DNA of 61,123 nucleotides, counting the filler, from Asterionella formosa (Eukaryota): NCBI GenBank assembly GCA_002256025.1. It is 11 parts of 11 records of this genome, joined end to end, with 100 filler letters (N's around TTAATTAATTAA, not from the genome) between each part and the next. Parts side by side here need not be neighbours in the genome. Positions count along the whole stretch, not along the records: positions 55,675 to 61,123 come from NKIB01013061.1; 10 more parts are not named here. One strand, written 5' to 3'. The notes under the pieces are model-generated. The model was given only the letters and a program-made list of their open reading frames with translations. It ran no database searches and had not been told where the DNA came from. Both the position numbers and the translations under genes were made by a program. Below, one piece after another: positions 5,481 through 61,123 of this stretch; the first letter of the stretch is position 1; every line of letters starts with the position of its first letter.

Positions 5481-5580
5481 NNNNNNNNNNNNNNNNNNNN
5501 NNNNNNNNNNNNNNNNNNNNNNNNTTAATTAATTAANNNNNNNNNNNNNNNNNNNNNNNNNNNNNNNNNNNNNNNNNNNN
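5481..5580. other. Artificial contig linker N44-TTAATTAATTAA-N44 (also 11058-11157, 16630-16729, 22201-22300, 27769-27868, 33340-33439, 38904-39003, 44464-44563, 50020-50119, 55575-55674)
   Basis: An identical 100-nt spacer with six-frame stops recurs about every 5.57 kb, and the intervening contigs roughly decrease in size. Confidence 0.99.
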
Positions 5581-11432: not shown

Positions 11433-11627
11433 TGAGCAATCCTGCACATTGATACAGATGTACATAGGGTTAGGGTTATATCAAATATATCGGAATTCAA
11501 TAATAAGAGAACTCGACTAACACCCATTCAATACTTTGATGTCAGTTCAGGAAATGAGTTGTACATAAGGATTAATTAATAAGCTCATATATTCAATAAA
11601 TACTACTTCTTCTAGTTAGCTACTTCA
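11433..11627 (+). repeat. 5' LTR (TG...CA; right end inferred)
   Basis: The first 147 nt match 16360-16506 with 2 mismatches. AATAAA at 11595-11600. Ends ...TACTTCA. Confidence 0.8.
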
Positions 11628-16359: not shown

Positions 16360-16506
16360 TGAGCAATCCTGCACATTGATACAGATGTACATAGGGTTAG
16401 GGTTATATCAAATGTATCGGAATTCAATAATAAGAGAACTCGACTAACACCCATTCTATACTTTGATGTCAGTTCAGGAAATGAGTTGTACATAAGGATT
16501 AATTAA
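16360..16506 (+). repeat. 3' LTR, interrupted at TTAA
   Basis: Follows the PPT. Matches the 5' LTR up to TTAA 16503-16506. Confidence 0.9.
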
Positions 16507-48242: not shown

Positions 48243-50019
48243 TTATGCCAAATTGATGATACATTCCTTGGCAATCTTGGGACCTACATGATGCAAAAAT
48301 TCTTCTAGATGTGGTTGAACGATGGCTTGTCCTTGAGGTTGTAACATGGAGAGTGTGAGCAGAGAGGGAACAGACAAGCGAATTTTGTTGATGACCTCCT
48401 CTTCCTCCTCATCTGTTTCTTGACTGATTGGTGATGGACCCATGTACAAGGTTCCATAATGATTTGGCATTTGACGCAAAATGCTTTGTCCTGCCTTTCC
48501 ATCAACCCATTGATAATGTGTTGGACATAGTAATTCTGATGGATGATACTCCATTTTGTATCTCATTTTCGGGCAACTTTCAATATAATACCCAAGATAG
48601 TAGTATGGTTTGTTCAATGCCAGTGTGAAGTCAATTTCTTTCAAAATGGCATATTTGCCCATGGCTACTATGGTATGTGAAAACTGTGCATCATAGAATG
48701 CATACACGGAAGATACACCGTTGGGTAATACATCCACAACACCAACAGCAACCAATTGATCGGCAATTCGATAATGTTGATGAAATGTTCCTTCCTTGGC
48801 TAATGATGTGGATATTAATGGTGATTCCACCAAAAATCTATAAAATCCTATATACATGGATTTGATCCATCTCCATCGATCTGCTGGATATTGTTGTTGT
48901 TTCAACATTTCCAATGCTTTGTTTTGAAACTCTATCGTTGCATCACCCCAATCTTCCATGTCATTTTCATCCTCATGCACATGTTGTTCTTCTGTCAACT
49001 GACATTTCAATGGATGTACATCACCATGAATGTCATGTTGATAGTCAAAATACAAACGATGAACATCAGGACATAAAGCAGAATCTGTAGCCGACATTGT
49101 TGTAATTTGCATTTGATATGGTGGCTGTGGTGGTGGTTGCGTGTGAAACCACATTTGAAGATTTGTTGAGAGTCCATGTCGTGTTTCTTCGTCTGTTTCC
49201 ATGGACTGTTGTATATCCAAAAAGTTGACAGGATTTGTTTGTTTCCTGGTAGTGATCAAAATTTGTCCAGATGATTCATGAACCATCATATTGATAATTC
49301 TCCCATCGTCACAGTGATGTTCCTTCAAGAAATTTACCACTTGTTCTGCCAATACATCTTTTTGAATCTTTCCCTTGGATGGACCAGCAATCGCCGCACA
49401 TACTTTAGTTACAAACGTGATTGTCGTCGCATTCGTCGTCATTTTGGACGATTGTATTTTGTACGTAACCTTTCCATCAAATGAAATCGTTGTAGATGAA
49501 AGCGTTTTTGCTAATGCTTGAGTTGTCCATTGTTCCAATTGCTGTATCATTGTGTTGTTGTTACTAGTTGTGGTTGTTGTTGGTTTCCGCTTTGGTGAGT
49601 TGTTGGATGTACGTGTGTGTTGTGTTTGTCCCACTGCCATTAATCGTTCCATTCGATGCAATACCCGACGTTGTGATTTAGTAGGCGCAAATGATTCTAC
49701 TGGCAATCGTATGGCCAACGCCGGACAACATGACAATTCATTCTTTGGTAGATAGACATGCAATCCACTTCGTCTCCAGCCACGACAGATCAAGCGTTCG
49801 TAGGTCCATGGCGTCAAGTCTTGAAACAGCAATCCATACGATGTACTACTCTCCGTACCAATGCCTGCATTAGCAGCAGTACTAGTGCGAGTGGTGCTAG
49901 CAAGACGACGAGATCCATGACAATATCCACAAGAGGAGCATGTGATACCACATATTCGTAACAAATTTCGTTGGGGAGTGACTGAACTTGTCCTGTTGTT
50001 GTTGTTGTTGTTGTTGTTG
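48243..50019 (-). CDS. ATE1: Arginyl-tRNA--protein transferase; N-terminus (poly-Asn) beyond contig edge
   Basis: CGYC, RGWRRSG, SCCP..IRL (ATE_N); GTFHQHYR..LVAVGVVDVLP..VSSVY.FYD, YYYLGYYI..CPKMRYK..Y.PSELLCP (ATE_C). The frame is open to 50019. Confidence 0.95.
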
Positions 50020-51859: not shown

Positions 51860-52137
51860 TATACATACATACATACATACATACATACATACATACATAC
51901 ATACATACATACATACATACATACATACATACATACATACATACATAGATACATAGATACATAGATACATAGATACATAGATACATAGATACATAGATAC
52001 ATAGATACATAGATACATAGATACATACACACATACATACATACATACATACATACATACATACATACATACATACATACATACATACATAGATACATAG
52101 ATACATAGATACATAGATACATAGATATATACATACA
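51860..52137. repeat. Compound microsatellite (TACA)n/(TACATAGA)n
   Basis: Directly visible alternating blocks. Confidence 0.98.
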
Positions 52138-53815
52138 TTCATTGTTAATTGATCTACATGTATGCATTTTCTTCGAGTATGATGTTTGCTAGTACTGGTA
52201 CTGGTAGTAGTAGTGGCGACCTCATGACAATGATGATAATAACTACGTCTATTGTAAACAGATAAATCACAAATTACTAATCAATTGTTGTTTTCGGGTA
52301 ATGATGTTGTAGTTTATGGCTACTTGATGTATGACGGTTATGTATAACAATTCGCGTTTTGATCCAGCAATAAACCACGGAGATATTGTCGCAGCGGCCA
52401 AGCGCCATTTTCTTCCACTGATTTTCTATTTTAGCTATTTTCCAATGAATATCAAAGCTACATGAACATTTCTTTCACTACTTCCTAGCGATACTAGTAT
52501 TCTATCTAGGATCTTAATAAAAGTGTTAAGCAGTTGTACAAAAGTAAAAATTGAAAATCATTTTTATCATCATTTGTTTAATGATAATGGGAAATCTCTC
52601 ATGTTCAATTCACTGTATAAATACGTAAAGAACATGCATTTTTTTATTACATGTTCATATGACATGTACCACAGCCGTTTGCACTTCTGTATATAGTATG
52701 AAATGCATGTAAACAAGAAGATTTCTGGAATAAGGAATCTTGGCACTGCTCGGGAAACTGGATTTTTCATAAATCAGTTTTTAAAATTTGATATTTTAAC
52801 AAATTTTGAAATGAATGGGCCAGCGTGAAACCATTAGAAATTACCATAGGAGTCGAATTTGAGTGCCTGTTGCTGGTGCCTCGTTTTGGTTTCAGTAAAA
52901 TGGCTGCAGCTTGCAGGCACACACTCCACTGATGCCGGGACGCTGTTACTTACATGATCCATAGACTACTGTGCATACACTGTAATACGAGTGCATCAAT
53001 ATGTAGATATTATAGAGGCAAACTACCAGGGGTACATAGTACATCATACTCCGACCACCAATCATTCCAGTATTTACCTACAGGAATTTCATCACAGTTA
53101 CTTATAAATCATGGTAGCAGTACAAGGTGGAAAAGTACTCCCTCTGTTCTCCGGTATAATTGCAACACGCTCAGCGAGGACTAACCCGGCTCAATCCATG
53201 TCCTTCAAAGGAGCCCTCTGTACAAGCAATATGCATTATCTACACGAGACGATGCAGGCTATGGGTATGCCAGTTAGATCTGTGTATTTAGGCGTGTATT
53301 ACACTAAATACTAGCAATATATTTTCATCGTTTAGGGCTATTGATTATTGTTGGTCAGCGTAATGACCTGTACCTGTATGTGTAATATTGGCTATTACTA
53401 CCAAAGAGATATAGCTAAATTTAAAAAACTAATAGTAGTAAATATATAGTAGTACCTGGTGGGAAATGAGGTTGTGTGCTTAGATTCCCACAATTTTTAG
53501 AAGCGATTGTTGGGTTCAACTTCCACACTCCTCACCATCCCGCACGGTCTTGCCTGATGTGCAAGGAAAGGTGGGTTGCCCTGGCCCTACAAGTAGCTTT
53601 TGTTGCATTCCTAGGCAGTCGGAGTTTCCCCTAATGCTGCGGCTTAGAAAATCATATTTCGCAAAAGTTGGCTGGGGACTCACCTACGTTAAAAAAACTA
53701 GGGAAGAGCAGGACTTGTTGGCAGGCTGTGCTATGATAAAACAACATGTAACCATGATGTCTCAGCCAGAAAGCGTGTTATAAGTGATTACCCTTAATAT
53801 ATACCTGGTTTTTTT

Positions 53816-53915: not shown

Positions 53916-55948
53916 GAGGCAGACAACAAGCAGGTCTTAGGCCCTCTGGGGGGTCAAGTGCGACTTCATAATCTCCACAATTGTTGAGTTCTTAAACAAT
54001 AGTGCACTTTAAAATTTACTTTATTATTTTTATATACCAGGTATATGCATAGTACAGAATCCTGAATGCAGCCTGTAACTTTATTGAAATGATCTGCCCA
54101 CCTCTCCATTTTTAAGATGGCCTCTCCATTATTAAGATGGTTTCATGTTTTCTTCAAACCACAATATCGCCATTATGCTCATTTCAACCCAAAAACTAAT
54201 CTGTAGCAGACATTACAGTTGGAACCATAAATGCATCAGGTCATATTGTGGCAGTAATTTTTAGTGGCATGATCCTGACATCCAAATTTACATGAAATCC
54301 ATTTTGTTATTGCTAATTCCAACCAGATTGTGCTGCTCCAACACAAATGGAGCAAACCTGACTCCTTTGAAGCCTTTCCAGTGAATATCAGTATATTTAC
54401 CAAAGTTAAACAAGATGCCTCATATTGTTTCTTATTTATGAGAATATTTCAGAGCAAATGCATCAGAGTGACTGGCTGATGATGAGCAAGACTTGTTGTC
54501 ACAGGTGCAACTAACCAAGCAAGGAGTAGTTATCATATGACATCTACTGGTACATCCGGAAGTCACCACTGGACAGCTTGGGAGGGGGTTAAGATGGAGT
54601 ACCTGTGGAAATTACAATACTAAAATATGGTTTTAACTTTTTTCATGCTTCACTAGTACCTTGTGAAAAGTACCACCTAAAAACTGAGAGTCATATAAAG
54701 TTTACCCCATGTTTCGACTCAAACTATTTTAGTCAAAGTTCATGGTGACAACAAATCAAGTACGTAGCTAAATGTAGAACAGGCTCTCCGCTTTCAATAG
54801 GTCTGTTTAATTAGTAATGAAGCTTCATAATTCAAGAGATATGAAGTTTTTAAAGTTGATGATTATGGTCGTTTTGTATGACTATCAATACATATTTTTA
54901 CTACGTACCTGAAGAAAATTTTATATTCAAATTCTGGTTTTGATTACCCTATTGTTCACTCTAAAGCTTTTTCCTGCCACAATATTATTTGTCCGTTGCA
55001 TCATCTACCCATTTATTATTAATTGTTTTCATTTTTTAAACCTTAAATAATAATGCGTTTGTTTGCCTTTTAACTCAAATATTATTTCAGTTTTTGTGTC
55101 AATAATCTTACTTACATTCGTTTTGATGATGGTTTGATATAGATTTATATAGGGATTATTTATGTTTGTCACTAATTAGTGTTCTGCTTACATCAGGCTA
55201 CTGGTTTGGAATTACTACTATGACAGATGTCAGCCAAGCGAGAATTTTTTGTTTGATTGCTTGTTTGCTTCTCCACCTTGCTCCGCTTCCGCCTCCTTGT
55301 TTCGTCGCTTCCTTCATATTCCTCCTCTCAGCCAGCTACCCTTCATATTCTTCCTTGCCCGAATCATGCAAGGCAGTGCAGCTGGAATTTCAATTGCCCC
55401 CTTATGTGCCAGCACAATTGTAAACTCCAGGCCAAGGGGGGAGAATAGGGGGATTGGACTCGCAGCAAGAACCACAGCAGTTTTGATCTCTTCTGCTGGC
55501 GCCTGCTGGTCTCCTCGGTGTGAGGTCTCTCCCAAGCGGGTAAGTATGGCTTGTCTTGTTTGTGGTACCGGGAANNNNNNNNNNNNNNNNNNNNNNNNNN
55601 NNNNNNNNNNNNNNNNNNTTAATTAATTAANNNNNNNNNNNNNNNNNNNNNNNNNNNNNNNNNNNNNNNNNNNNTGTATCAATGATACAAAATTGATACC
55701 ATCAAGTTACCGTTGCTGATACCGTGTTTTGATACCAACCGTCATTTTTTGCCCACAACCCGGAAATGATACAGCAAATTCGGAATGATAAGAACGACCC
55801 TTAGTGGTAATTTTTTGTTTTTAACTTCAACTTTCTCGTCTTTATTCGCGCACTGTCTTCAAAACTCCAGACAGATTCTCTTTGCGAAGCTGAATGTATG
55901 GATGATAAGGACAGAGTCCATTCCTTGCGTGCTCCGCTTGTATGCCTG

Positions 55949-55984
55949 TTAGGGTTAGGGTTAGGGTTAGGTTAGGGGTGAGGG
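55949..55984 (+). repeat. Telomeric repeat tract (TTAGGG)3 plus degenerate units at the PLE 3' end
   Basis: TTAGGGTTAGGGTTAGGGTTAGGTTAGGGGTGAGGG. Confidence 0.9.
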
Positions 55985-56027
55985 CTACAATGACTATTAT
56001 CCAGCAACAATAAGGTGACTACTTAAG

Positions 56028-56090
56028 TTGCTGAAAAGTAATGAGACTAATGTTACTTTTCGCCTGAAGGGGCTTCATCAGTTGGCTTGG
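56028..56090 (-). ncRNA. Candidate type I hammerhead ribozyme in the PLE 3' UTR
   Basis: The minus strand reads CUGAUGA-A-GCC-ccuuca-GGC-GAAA-AGUAA-loop-UUACU-U-U. Core and stems II and III are present; stem I is poor. Confidence 0.55.
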
Positions 56091-56247
56091 ATCTGTAGTA
56101 ATGTTTTGTTGTGGTCCTGGTGCTTGCGGGGGGGCGGTATTGATAGTGGAGGTGGAGGAAGCATGGACCTGGTTAGGGTTGATGTTTTCCGTTCGCTATC
56201 AATTTGCGTTGTAAGTAGGTGAGTACTGACTGAAGTGGTTTCCGATC

Positions 56248-58202
56248 TCAGTTTCCGTGGTGATGTTTAGGGCGATTATAAGCGATTATCAACCTTTGGA
56301 TAGTACATTGATTTCCGGAGAAATTCCGTAGTGAAGTAAGAGTTGGTTCTTTCTTCAGGGAAAATATAGTGTGTTGGAAGATGCGTTGTATGTGAGATGA
56401 TGGAGGGTTGTTCGGATGAAATGGCATGTGGAGGAACACACATTGTTCTGTGTTTGTGTCCGTTCTTTGAGTGGCCGTGTTGGTGGTGTCCGATTTGTTA
56501 ATACATAATTGTTTTATGTATGTATTAAAGATGGGTATAAGGATTTTAGCAACCTTGGACATGTAAGCGGTTGTAAAAAGAATGGATTGCAGTTTTAAAA
56601 TGTGTCTCGACCATTGTTAAATGGTAGATTCAGTGGATCATGCCTGCAATGATACCGTGAAGGACACCGGGAGCGAGGGCGTGCGCTATGTTGTGGTATG
56701 TAGAGATAGGGATTCATAGATTTCTCAAATAGTGTTGTATCAATAGAACGGGTGTGTTGATTGATAGAAATAGTGAGATCAAGGAAAGTTGTTGATAATC
56801 TCCGTGGTTCTGCATTCCATTTTTGTGTGCCAAAATTATTCATCAAGCTGATAGACGAGTTGTGTGATTTTTGATCCTCGATATGGGTAGTTGATGTAGG
56901 GACCCAGATAATAAAGCAATCATCAGTATACCTTCTGTAGAAAGATATTTGTGGAAAGGTTGGGATGGTTTGTATTTCGTGAATTGCAAAATAGAGGGTG
57001 GCATATGTTGCTGCCGGAGGTGTCCCCATAGCTGTTCCAGATGTTTGGATCCAGTATGTATTTCCGAATTTAAAAATGTTATGTCGCATGATAATTTCGA
57101 GTGCATTTATGAGTGCATCAATATTAATATCTTCATTGAGGCAGATGTCTGGTCTGTCAATTTGTAGGAATTTATTAATGACGGAAAGTGCGTGGGTTGT
57201 GTCTATGTTAGTGTACATAGAGATTGCGTCCATGGTGAATAAGGTTGCGGTTGTTGAGAGGTTATTAATGGAGCAAATATCATGGACAAGCTCGAAGGAG
57301 CTTGAAAGGGTAAATGGGAGATGTTGAGTGATTTTTTGAAGACTGACATCAGTCCATTTGCCTAGACCATGGCAGATACCTCCACTGACACTGATGATGG
57401 GCCGGGTTGTTAGCGGTGTCTTATGTATTTTCGCCAGTAAGTAGAAGTATGCTAATGGGTCTTTTGTTTGTAGGGAACGGTTAAGGAATGTTGATGTTGT
57501 TTCCTTAGCTTTGAAGTGCTTTAGACTAAAGTTCGTAATCAGTTTGGTGATTGCCTTTATCCTTCCTTCAGCTTGTTGTTCAGAAAGTTGTCAATAAATA
57601 TTTTTGTTTAGGAGATGGTCGTTGAGAGCCATGTTGATGTATCGAGATCGTTCGATAATGGCTGGACCAAGGTTTTTATCGCAACGGGAAACAATGAGTT
57701 TTTCATTGTTTGTTAGTGACTCAAGTGCTCTTTATTGTGAAGGTAAGAGGTTGTGTCGACGGTGTTTGTGTTGAAAGAGTCTTAGGAGTGTGTGTTTGAA
57801 TGCGTTGATTCTTACACGAAATTCGGCTGTGATTTCATTATGAGGAGGTATCCAGTTGGAGCGAATAAAAAGTTTTGTTGGAGGTAATGGTTCCGAACCT
57901 GCAAAGTAAAACTATGTTAACATGTCCCGGTTGAATCTTGTGAAATCAACATCTTCACTTTTTGGTGAATATCTCGGCGTTATGCAGAAATTTAGACCAA
58001 GTCCAAGGAGTGATTTGATGCCGAATAGGGCTTTTTCTGAGGATGTGGAGAGGTTGTGATATGCAACGTTTTGCGGTCTTGATAAATATAACCAAGGTGG
58101 TAGATTTTGAAGAAGTTTGTTTGTGTTGTAAGATATTGATTTTTCTGGGTTGCTGATATCTCCAAAGTTATAATGCATGCTTTTTTCATTGAAATTATGC
58201 AT
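56248..58202 (-). pseudogene. PLE reverse transcriptase (ORF2) with in-frame stops and frameshifts
   Basis: LLGLGLNFC, CDKNLGP, LAKIHKTPLTTRPII, MDAISMYTNI, GTAMGTPPA, YRRYTDD, TFLDLTI, LYIPQHSA, and C-terminal VFLHMPFHP...RLIIAYNRP. Stops near 57912, 57732 and 57593. Confidence 0.9.
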
Positions 58203-59137
58203 TGATGATGTTTCTTAGCTTTTTCGTCTTCTTCTTTTTTGTCAGTTTTTTGGAGAGTTTTTTGTTCTCTGCCCCTGTTGAGGTATCTGAGTCTATAACG
58301 TCGGCTTCGTTTTTGAAGTCGATGGTTATGTTGTTGTGACCGGTTGTTTTTTCTTTTTTTGTGAGGCGCTTTGGTCTGTTTTCTTTCTGGAAGTTGTCTT
58401 GGTTGCTTTGTTTGTTGATTTCTTTCCAGGTTTGACTGTTGTGTCGGTTGCATCGGTTGCCCCTCTTGAGGTGTTCTTTGATGTTGATGTTTCCTTAAGT
58501 TTAGCAAGCTCTTTTCTCATTGATAGTGTGGCTTTGTTTACTTTATCATTGATTAATTTGGAGAGTTAGTTGGGCTCTACGCTGTATTCTTTGTTGAATT
58601 CCATAGTCGATAATGTAGTGTCATTTTGGCAAAGGATTCCATACGGAGTTTCTGCTTGTTGATTATGTTTGTTTGATCAAATGCGTTGCTTGAATTGATG
58701 TACATATGTAGAATCGATTGTTTGAACGTTGGGATGACTGTTTGAACAATTGTTGACTTTAGGTTGATTTGTAAGTCGGATTGTGACAAAAGTTGTAGTT
58801 GGTCTTGAGTATAAACTGTTGGAGGAAGGAGATCATAGAGATAAGTCGCGGCATTAATTGTATCCGCATTGACTAGTTCTTGAATCGCTGGTTTGCACAT
58901 GACGGTTTTGATCACATCTAGTATCATTTCATTGGAGATGGTACTTTCTGTGGTGATTGTTAAGATGCTGCCTTTAGCTAAGATAGTTAGACTTTCAAGA
59001 ATATGAGTTGCAATGGCGATCTTCGTGGTTTTGAGTTCGAGTGCTGCAGTAAGCTTGATTTTTTCTTTAATAGCTTGGGAGAAGGAAGTAACAAGGGCAT
59101 CGGTTTCTGAGGAAAGGTCCTTGAATGTTTTAGTGGC
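58200..59137 (-). pseudogene. PLE ORF1 (helical, basic C-terminus), 5'-truncated
   Basis: The frame of ORF 58577-58927 stays open up to 59137 (ATKTFKDLSSETDALV...). A K/R-rich tail lies just upstream of the RT. Confidence 0.6.
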
Positions 59138-59160
59138 TAGGGTTAGGGTTAGGGTTAGGG
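59138..59160 (+). repeat. Telomeric repeat tract at the PLE 5' truncation point
   Basis: TAGGGTTAGGGTTAGGGTTAGGG joined directly to ORF1 coding sequence. Confidence 0.92.
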
Positions 59161-59450
59161 ACCACTAGAGTGTATGGTAGGGGTTGTGAGCAGCTGGAGA
59201 ATCCTGCATAATTTCATGCGTCTTTGCTTTGACAATGACGAAAATACCAATTTGGAAAGGGTTGTTCTCATGCTACTAGTGCCAACAAGAGCTACATCGG
59301 GTAATTCGTACTCCGTACCAGGTACCTGGTACCCTGAGCATAATTCCTGCCATTCCGGTAAATACATAGACCTACCTTACTATCATAGAAATATAATTCG
59401 TTTTATTTTCTGTAAATGTAAAATATTTGGGTGTGCAGCACCAAATGTAC

Positions 59451-60805
59451 TATCATAGTGAACTTCATTTATTAAGCGCCTTAAGACTACTCAAGAAGTG
59501 TTAGTAGGGTAGCCCGCATGGCGCTTCCTGGCATTGACAGCCTAGGTTGTATAAAAATCTTAACCTACCCAGTATCAACCCAACAAATGTGGTGACTTTG
59601 GGCGCTGCAAGGCGGGGAAAGAGTGGATACACTCTCTCGAATGAGAGTAGGTGGAAGTATGTGTGTTGTAAATTTCATATTCTGGCTGGCACTGGTGAGT
59701 TAATCTGTCACCACATTTTGATGACTGAGGAGAAGGCAGATAGCTTGGTTTGATCTTTTAATGAGGCATATATTTGCCTCCCATGTGTTTGCCTTGCCTT
59801 TGTGGTATTTATGGCAGACTCTGATAATATTGTGCAGCTTTAGCTCGTATCAACTGATTGGATCAAAGTGAAATGTGGTGACATGATCATCACGACTTTT
59901 CTTGAATTCTTGTTGTTTCTGTTGATTATTTCATGTGTTTGTAGCTCATTGCATACTCTGTAGTTATTGTGTAGCTCAAAGCGCCAATGGAGCCTCGCTT
60001 CTGATGCCAGTACATCGACAAATGCGCTCATCAATTGAATGATGCATGTTGTTGCATTCCATTCATTTTCGTCAAGCTCCTTGAGTTTCTTGTTGTTTCT
60101 GTTGATTCTTTCATGTGCTTGTAGCTCATTGCATACGCTGTACATAGTACATCTAGCTACATTATAATTGAGATCCGTTCTATGTCATGGTACCAGGTAG
60201 TGTACATTGTTAGTAAGAATGGATGTTCTATTTTTTCGCTAAGTATCAAGGTGAAAATAATAGGAACTAATCTAGAACAAATACAGACCAACAAGGAATC
60301 TGCCACTGCACTGGTATAGTCAGCCAAGCTACAAAGTTTTCCGGCTTCGCTGTTGAGAATCATCAGAAAAGAGGCGTCAATGAATGGTACAATTGAAACT
60401 CAAGGTCCAAGTCTATTTAAAAATTACAAAGAAAATGGAAGAAAATGAAATAGATTGGCTGGGCAACAATCCCTCGACAAATTTTATCCCAGTGTCCTTG
60501 ACGAGCAAGTGGAATCTCGCCAAACATCTGTGTGGTCCAAACAGCCACAACAAGTACAACCAAAGGTATTGAATTTCCTCCCTAATCCCTGATGAGGTGA
60601 AAGAATTAAATTCAGCACATTTGGCACCATTTTGATCCCAACTCTCATTTGAGAGAGTGTACCTCACCAGAAAATTCCCCATATGCGAGCACCAGAAGTC
60701 ACCACATTTGTTAGGCTGATATTTGGAGGGCGCAGTCATTTCGATGCCCATGCTGGACCTGCCAGGAAGCGCCATGCAGGCTCTTAATAAATGAAGCTAA
60801 TGATA
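59451..60805. mobile_element. Non-autonomous element with long (about 170-200 bp) imperfect terminal inverted repeats
   Basis: Four colinear inverted blocks: 59463-76/60783-96, 59516-33/60760-77, 59582-98/60696-712 and 59628-48/60641-61. Confidence 0.7.
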
Positions 60806-61123
60806 CCATGGTAGTATACATACTTATACAAAGATTGACCTGGTGCTGTCACTTCAAATTATCAAATTTGTCCATAATTCTAGGCAAAGCAAAAAATGAA
60901 TACTATTACATGAGGCGCCATCAACATTGGATAGCAAATAATAATAATTTCATGTTCTTGGGTGTAAACCTCTGAACTTAGTTAATGAATCTGCCATTAC
61001 CTTCACTAGATTCTGTGGTCTCATCACTGTTCGATTCTTCATGCTTCCATTCTGAGAAATCCATTTCTGGCTGATCGAAATGCAATGCATCAGGGTTTAA
61101 GGTGGGCCTTTGCGTTTGTCCTG

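What the first reader, a model, noticed from the sequence alone, without database searches (positions are those of the whole stretch)
55949..59160. Endonuclease-less Penelope-like retroelement bracketed by TTAGGG on both sides, now apparently internal
Seen: a minus-strand PLE-type RT (DKNLG, KIHK..RPII, DAISMYTNI, GTAMG, YTDD) with an upstream ORF1 and no GIY-YIG motif at either end. ORF1 is open right up to 59137, where it is replaced by about 4 TTAGGG units. A second tract marks the 3' end. Both tracts read CCCTAA on the element's sense strand. Established: EN-minus PLEs (Athena, Coprina and relatives, including in stramenopiles) prime on G-rich telomeric 3' ends, point their 5' end outward and are capped by telomerase when truncated. 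The polarity here matches. Inference: the cap is only 23 nt and is followed by about 2 kb of unrelated non-telomeric DNA. This may record a break that was telomerase-seeded, extended by the PLE RT, re-capped and then re-joined or overgrown. The family itself is probably uncatalogued.
Basis: partly seen in the sequence, partly recalled or inferred. Interest (0 to 1): 0.8.

Follow-up and report, generated by a model that had tools for sequence, protein, structure and literature searches.

The report
Telomere-type retroelement patching an internal break
This is a dead copy of a known kind of nuclease-less, telomere-attaching jumping gene in a diatom; it sits between short telomere repeats where a broken gene was joined to unrelated DNA, and similar patches elsewhere in the genome point to a candidate telomerase RNA.

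Summary
55949-59160 is a decayed, 5'-truncated Penelope-like element without GIY-YIG, carrying a hammerhead motif and a CCCUAA tail. Sister copies sit under telomere tracts at contig ends, and intact relatives exist in public metagenomes. The 59160/59161 join is real: an independent metagenome contig spans it, and a 92% twin has 26 kb of gene-bearing DNA beyond the cap. The left flank is a multicopy gene cut in its 5' part; the right flank is the interior of another repeat. So this is a break-and-join scar, not an old subtelomere. The scan found this family before on other DNA of this genome. Added here: new TTAGGG tracts are preceded by a graded (A)AAACTG signature, and a non-coding element (44 exact heads) starts right after two TTAGGG units, is 5'-truncated and is often re-capped. 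This implies an RNA with hairpin - U linker - two-repeat template - CAGUUUUG, which is how a telomerase RNA is built; I found none described for diatoms. No source gene or pseudoknot was found, so that identity is a hypothesis (about 0.35). Clade (Coprina or Athena) could not be tested.

The parts
55846..55946 (-). Left target: 5' part of a multicopy host gene, cut where the repeats begin
   Evidence: 40 matches of 40 scored; 7 of 7 fetched paralogues continue past the point where the window switches to repeats
55947..55948 (+). Two non-target bases (TG; GG in the twin) between target and first TTAGGG; with the target's last C they read CTG
   Evidence: signature statistics
55949..55984 (+). 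Proximal telomeric tract: element-encoded CCCUAA-like tail plus 1-3 added units
56029..56087 (-). Type I hammerhead ribozyme motif in the 3' repeat (pLTR); stem I is mutated in this copy and intact in sister copies
   Evidence: all laid contigs differ from the window at 56032-56033; no Rfam match at E<=1
56162..58214 (-). Penelope-like RT with thumb, no GIY-YIG; 3 in-frame stops, frameshifts near 56675 and further down; YTDD where relatives have YIDD
   Evidence: 85% identical to intact metagenome protein P0139 over residues 1-416
58200..59137 (-). ORF1, decayed and 5'-truncated; about 270-290 nt with the start codon are missing; lower boundary approximate
   Evidence: full-length 5' ends in L002 and L010; ORF1 and RT overlap in the -1 frame in 30 of 33 relatives with both ORFs
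59137..59160 (+).
59161..59252 (+). Right partner of the join: interior of a different multicopy repeat; no target-site duplication
   Evidence: 147 candidates, 40 scored; 7 of 7 fetched paralogues have other sequence upstream; join spanned by run X2

Best explanation
A dead copy of an endonuclease-less Penelope-like retroelement that was written into a DNA break and then sealed inside a chromosome. Steps: (1) a break arose in the 5' part of a multicopy gene (shown by paralogues); (2) a template RNA, most simply telomerase, added a few TTAGGG (inferred); (3) the element's RNA, whose 3' part carries a hammerhead and a short CCCUAA tail, paired with these repeats and its RT copied 3.15 kb of the 3.5-kb unit, stopping about 280 nt short of the ORF1 start (truncation shown, enzyme inferred); (4) three or four TTAGGG were added again (shown, enzyme inferred); (5) before a long telomere formed, the end was joined to another broken end lying inside an unrelated repeat (join shown, timing inferred). 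The same seed-extend-cap-join pattern recurs in this genome, with pieces of this element and with a second, non-coding RNA.
For: Family anatomy: 0 of 120 closest proteins with a GIY-YIG motif or a listed GIY-YIG domain; none in six frames; the model's best structural matches are TERTs. Hammerhead core on the sense strand in 26 of 80 related loci against 1 antisense; 37 of 46 distinct cores fold fully against 0.8 in shuffles. Same polarity at ends: of 21 loci with long tracts, 7 have the element directly under the tract. 23 of 23 visible 3' ends carry telomeric units. Internal position: twin contig C1040 has 26 kb with long ORFs beyond the cap. Break inside a gene and join to another family. 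Join real. TERT present. CTG before new tracts in 11 of 55, 0.8 expected. One filled/empty pair shows CTG plus two repeats replacing about 17 nt.
Against: No empty allele of this site was seen: no joint skipping the element among 15 of 69 joints shown, and the two flanks share no contig other than the two filled ones among the 40 matches scored for each. The CTG signature at this junction is ambiguous because the twin reads GG. 21 of 37 loci show no capped 5' end, though many are old fragments. Capped cases include duplicates (about 8 events). Which RT made the tracts is untested. The fold match to TERT is only slightly better than to retron and group II intron RTs.
Confidence: 0.7

Rival explanations
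1. The copy was a stable healed chromosome end for many generations; its telomere later eroded to four units and the end fused to other DNA.
For: Sister copies do sit under long terminal tracts on non-telomeric DNA, so healed ends exist. A short tract is what an eroded, fusion-prone end would leave.
Against: Stand-alone two-unit inserts exist, one with an empty paralogue. A common short length fits one-step repair better than many separate erosions.
Confidence: 0.14
2. No telomerase is involved: the element's own RT makes both tracts, by slipping on its CCCUAA tail and jumping to the tail of another RNA (its own or the non-coding partner), then stopping.
For: The tail is element-encoded. Element and partner are often joined directly through 1-4 units. 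A Penelope RT can start inside its RNA at a site without homology to the target (PMC11167929, passages).
Against: The element's own tail is not followed by CAGUUUU in tandem units, yet that signature precedes new tracts genome-wide and one terminal tract with no element (L318). TERT is present. The signature RNA could still be a substrate of the PLE RT.
Confidence: 0.13
3. Assembly artefact: a terminal copy was mis-joined to unrelated DNA through the short repeat.
For: Fragmented assembly (15,436 contigs); the read-laying tool notes that records seem cut at both tracts in X1. One terminal piece appears on three contigs with two different left flanks.
Against: A second contig at 92% identity has the same join. 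A contig from a different study spans 58536-59212 with no difference, 52 nt past the join.
Confidence: 0.02

Closest known systems
Coprina-type EN-minus Penelope-like elements (fungi, clubmoss, the diatom Phaeodactylum; Coprina-1_Alen in PMC13159263)
   Same: No GIY-YIG; DKN, RT and thumb; two ORFs as in Coprina-1_Alen; direct terminal repeat; telomeric repeats on both sides; ORFs read towards the centromere; type I hammerhead with a large helix III as described for protist and fungal EN-minus PLEs (PMC4209133, section 7).
   Different: All 13 Coprina-1_Alen copies are at chromosome ends, whereas this copy and several others are sealed internally with 2-6 unit caps. Clade membership was not testable: no named reference sequence was available.
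Athena and Terminon elements of bdelloid rotifers
   Same: EN-minus; reverse-complement telomeric repeats next to hammerheads; attach to G-rich overhangs (PMC8557442, passages); two ORFs (PMC13159263). The -1 overlap of ORF1 and RT resembles what I recall for Athena (recalled, no call).
   Different: Unit is about 3.5 kb with no giant multi-gene array; diatom host; TTAGGG repeat.
TERC-ITS loci of vertebrates (PMC8537989; PMC2246262)
   Same: Short telomeric tracts put into breaks; in 4 of 41 loci the RNA next to the template is copied in the same orientation after the last repeat. This is the layout of the partner element.
   Different: 41 loci in 30 genomes there, against at least 44 heads in one genome here, with read-through up to 1.5 kb and direct joins to PLE pieces. 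The RNA here is not shown to be the telomerase RNA.
Telomerase RNAs of Diaphoretickes (PMC8287931)
   Same: Template with a hairpin immediately 5' of it.
   Different: Among stramenopiles that paper proposes a candidate only for Blastocystis; 'diatom' does not occur in its main text. The 5' part here is far longer than in the plant example of 268 nt, and no pseudoknot or source gene was found.

Membership tests
EN-minus Penelope-like elements | PLE-type RT (DKN motif, RT core, thumb) related to TERT | tested here: met
   Motifs; model pLDDT 87.5 with TERTs at ranks 1-5; relatives carry PF28514 and PF26215
EN-minus Penelope-like elements | No GIY-YIG endonuclease at either end | tested here: met
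   0 in six frames with a scoring control; 0 of 120 near relatives; 0 of 80 loci by motif; 1 of 23 longer relatives has one, at 27% identity and outside the family's branch
EN-minus Penelope-like elements | Reverse-complement telomeric repeats with an adjacent hammerhead in the terminal repeat | tested here: met
   the motif is broken in this copy. In the 80 distant loci only 5 have two perfect units
EN-minus Penelope-like elements | Attachment to G-rich ends with the 5' end outward, capped when truncated | tested here: met
   7 of 21 tract-bearing loci (3 events), all in this polarity
EN-minus Penelope-like elements | Generally confined to chromosome termini | tested here: not met
   Twin copy has 26 kb with genes beyond the cap; other capped pieces run into non-telomeric DNA. 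The literature says 'generally restricted' (PMC8557442), so this marks a variant
Coprina clade | RT groups with Cc1, Pc1, Pt1, Sm1 in a tree | not testable with these tools
   No named reference could be fetched; the tree shows only that the family is one branch (100/100) apart from the EN-bearing and amphibian rows
Coprina clade | Single ORF (typical; exception reported) | tested here: not met
   Two overlapping ORFs in 30 of 33; Coprina-1_Alen also has two
Athena clade | RT groups with rotifer Athena | not testable with these tools
   No named reference; Atlas clusters list Rotifera as commonest taxon on 3-7 recorded members, which is weak
Telomerase RNA (for the partner element) | Internal template of at least 1.5 repeats used for new repeat addition | tested here: inconclusive
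   Signature plus two units at 19 sites, control 0; graded signature; one empty/filled pair. That template and partner body lie on one RNA is inferred
Telomerase RNA (for the partner element) | Boundary hairpin immediately 5' of the template | tested here: met
   11-bp hairpin 4 nt from the template; 201-nt region folds at z -3.55; prediction only
Telomerase RNA (for the partner element) | Pseudoknot 3' of the template in a source gene | tested here: inconclusive
   No source locus identified; the best candidate group was no better than shuffles (138 of 500 as good) and gave no convincing pseudoknot
Telomerase RNA (for the partner element) | Expressed and bound by TERT | not testable with these tools
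   The single read-laying run was used on the window contig; binding needs an experiment

The most novel reading that the evidence does not exclude
The non-coding partner is the 5' part of this diatom's telomerase RNA (hairpin - UUUU - CCCUAACCCUAAC - AGUUUUGUG). At internal breaks telomerase pairs through the bases 3' of its template, adds repeats and sometimes runs past the boundary hairpin, or hands over to the Penelope-like RT, which copies up to 1.5 kb. The RNA has thereby become a dispersed retroposon, and telomerase and the nuclease-less element together act as a routine break-patching route that truncates genes and joins unrelated loci. The window copy is one scar of that route.
Probability: 0.35. 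Interest if true: 0.85.

Novelty: new variant of a known kind. Interest (0 to 1): 0.55.

Why it matters
EN-minus Penelope-like elements are treated as telomere residents and as models for the ancestor of telomerase. Here the same priming route works at internal breaks and leaves rearrangement scars in genes, so such elements can reshape chromosome interiors without a nuclease. The junctions also give a sequence handle on the template RNA. If it is the telomerase RNA, it fills a gap (I found none described for diatoms) and makes a direct test possible of whether TERT and a PLE RT share primers and templates. An intact family member, known from metagenomes, is available for biochemistry. Taken alone, the window copy is an ordinary relic.

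Tried and rejected
Pfam finds no RT family for these proteins in the local copy, and sequence search of solved structures gave nothing. Rfam found no hammerhead at E<=1 and nothing credible for the partner; the hammerhead rests on my own motif and stem counts. The idea that the 5' tract is a fixed part of the element was rejected: full copies continue 268-291 nt further without it. The idea that 59161 onward is the element's 5' region or another telomere-primed unit was rejected: it is the interior of another repeat. Empty allele: none among 15 of 69 joints shown in four runs; a screen of 85 inserts against about 0.8 Mb of held DNA gave 4 hits, of which 3 were false and 1 real (the first version was swamped by self-matches). 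A source gene for the template RNA was sought among the 19 signature sites; the group around L289 looked promising in one fold but failed the duplex control. A second YNRPK at 49456 is chance. No tree with named Athena, Coprina, Penelope, Neptune, Naiad or TERT rows could be built; three rows were dropped from the tree for lack of the YxDD anchor. GIY-YIG was scanned on this contig and one full copy, not genome-wide. The two founding papers (Gladyshev and Arkhipova 2007; Arkhipova 2017) are not held and may describe internal capped copies.

Full report
Setting. The window is a chain of about 5.5-kb contigs joined by N linkers; the element lies on G000:C13061 = window 55675-61123. The genome has 68.4 Mb in 15,436 contigs. 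The host is a diatom: a gene on the twin contig matches clusters whose commonest phylum is Bacillariophyta, and runs holding the flank are freshwater and algal metagenomes.

Observation. The copy is dead: against an intact family member from public metagenomes (P0139, 624 aa) it is 85% identical over residues 1-416 with 3 stops, then frameshifted. ORF1 is open only from 58577 to the cap. Six-frame Pfam scans of the contig and three sense frames of a full copy found no GIY-YIG, while a control protein in the same call did.

The family. A search with a natural 519-aa frame found 570 relatives; none of the 120 listed has a GIY-YIG domain or motif. Among 23 longer relatives one has it, at 27% identity, and falls outside the family's branch (100/100; 42 rows, no named references). 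The predicted structure (pLDDT 87.5) matches TERTs best, by a small margin over other RTs. In 80 metagenome loci, ORF1 and RT overlap in the -1 frame in 30 of the 33 where both were called, which suggests a frameshift (inference). A hammerhead core lies on the sense strand in 26 of 80 against 1 antisense. 37 of 46 distinct cores form a full type I fold, against 0.8 in shuffles, with 15 different stem I sequences; the window copy fails because stem I is mutated. The full unit is about 3.48 kb and ORF1 starts 268-291 nt beyond the window's truncation point, just after the tail of the unit in front.

Copies in this genome. 55 matches were returned (40 of 54 candidates scored). All 23 visible 3' ends carry telomeric units, 20 of them two or more; this count includes duplicates of single events. 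Head-to-tail units carry only 1-2 units, so part of the tract is element-encoded and the rest is added. Reading by eye, 16 of 37 loci have a 5' end followed by repeats, about 8 events: 2 run to the contig end, 3 run into another element or partner copy, 3 run into other DNA (this one and its twin, C11692, and an amplified 90-nt piece). The other 21 show no cap. Of 21 loci with long tracts (taken from the first 100 of 186 pattern hits and), 7 have the element directly beneath in the expected polarity and 2 have the partner head. A TERT gene is present.

This site. A twin on C1040 is 91-92% identical across element and flanks and has 26 kb beyond the cap with many long ORFs; names such as ARF1, EBP2, acyl-ACP desaturase and PPR are my recall from the sequences, only the peroxidase comes from a call. 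A contig from a different study spans 58536-59212 without a difference (run X2), so the join is real. The left flank is the 5' part of a multicopy gene: 7 of 7 fetched paralogues (of 38 others listed) continue where the window switches to two non-target bases and TTAGGG. The right flank is the interior of another repeat: 7 of 7 fetched paralogues have other sequence upstream. There is no target-site duplication. So the element links two loci that do not belong together, or spans a large deletion. No empty allele was seen (15 of 69 joints shown).

A second element and a template signature. Several PLE pieces are joined through TTAGGG to a non-coding, AT-rich element. Its head matches 44 places exactly, control 0. 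Of 49 heads with a left flank, 47 follow 1-7 telomeric units, most often 2. The other end is free: from 7 nt to more than 1.5 kb. 15 of 34 ends scored as truncated are followed by repeats (background 0.5%); that set includes duplicates and subfamily breakpoints. On the CCCUAA strand an 11-bp hairpin lies 4 nt 5' of the tract. In 55 tracts from loci not chosen for the motif, the bases before the first TTAGGG are TG in 21 (4.3 expected), CTG in 11 (0.8) and AAAACTG in 2 (0.01). AAAACTG plus the repeat occurs at 19 sites, control 0; of 11 fetched, 7 (6 events) have no partner body. One has an empty paralogue: the target's A run is kept, CTG plus two repeats is added and about 17 nt are lost. This is what an RNA would leave that pairs through UUUU, copies CAG and two repeats, and stops at a hairpin. 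One locus has repeats interleaved with CA-rich units and an array of CCACACAAAA, which may be slippage on the same flank (unexplained). Two models fit: the partner is the 5' part of that RNA, read through; or the partner is a separate parasite primed on seeded ends. My data do not separate them, since very short products occur with PLE pieces too. No source gene was found, and expression was not tested.

Mechanism. Shown: break inside a gene, non-target bases, truncation, cap, real join to unrelated DNA, internal position of the twin. Inferred: seeding and capping by telomerase, extension by the PLE RT through tail pairing, joining before a long telomere formed. Established background: EN-minus PLEs attach to G-rich overhangs helped by reverse-complement repeats and hammerheads.

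Literature, and what I saw of it. PMC8557442: passages. PMC13159263: passages and section 17; Coprina is reported from Phaeodactylum, and Coprina-1_Alen has two ORFs and repeats on both sides, all 13 copies terminal. PMC4209133: passages and section 7. PMC8537989: passages. PMC2246262: outline only. PMC8287931, PMC12133305, PMC7658794, PMC11167929, PMC4700185 and bioRxiv 2020.09.15.297952: passages. No supplements were read; those of the telomerase RNA papers could hold diatom candidates. Ten searches listed no paper whose title or abstract start describes a diatom telomerase RNA or internal capped EN-minus copies, but the two founding papers are not held. Earlier notes of this scan describe the same family on other pieces of this genome as an ordinary relic, read the partner's head as a DNA-transposon tip, and rejected another telomerase RNA candidate that I could not compare.

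Verdict. The element is a new family of a known kind, with an internal break-joining behaviour that makes it a variant. The window copy alone merits about 0.35. The genome-wide signature and the candidate template RNA raise the score to 0.55.

Noticed in passing
whole window; linkers at 5481, 11058, 16630, 22201, 27769, 33340, 38904, 44464, 50020, 55575: The window is a size-sorted chain of about 5.45-5.48 kb contigs joined by N44-TTAATTAATTAA-N44 linkers, so neighbours across linkers are not real neighbours.
   Followed up: yes
window 59452-60142, partial inverted copy at 60638-60782: Dispersed repeat with an internal duplication of about 180 nt; 372 candidates in the genome.
   Followed up: partly
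window 55675-55805: Young high-copy repeat, 96-100% identical across 40 scored copies of 228 candidates.
   Followed up: no
window 11464-11478 and 16391-16405: The same short TAGGGTTAGGGTTA tract inside two near-identical copies of another repeat, on two different contigs.
   Followed up: no
L346:1420-1680 (G000:C8679): Internal TTAGGG tracts interleaved with (CA)n and followed by an array of CCACACAAAA, matching the inferred 3' flank of the template RNA.
   Followed up: partly
L330 about 1190 nt into the partner body; L004/L005: Partner copies that meet a telomeric tract or a PLE piece in the opposite orientation, as if both sides of a break had been extended.
   Followed up: partly
L011, L012, L015 (C2710, C15319, C3952): The same truncated terminal piece and cap appears on contigs with two different left flanks: spread between ends or assembly collapse.
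   Followed up: no
L341 and L342/L274/L276/L281: One partner copy carries about 350 nt shared only with a group sitting behind LRR-type genes, which suggests that inserted copies can themselves be transcribed and re-copied.
   Followed up: partly
G000:C10287:6121-6489 (-): TERT gene, RNA-binding domain at 117 bits in a 1058-aa open frame.
   Followed up: partly
window 55846-55946 (-) and L361-L367: The broken gene belongs to a multicopy family whose N-terminus has a C-x2-H ... C-x2-C pattern; family not identified.
   Followed up: no
window 51861-52142: 35 copies of an 8-bp tandem repeat.
   Followed up: no
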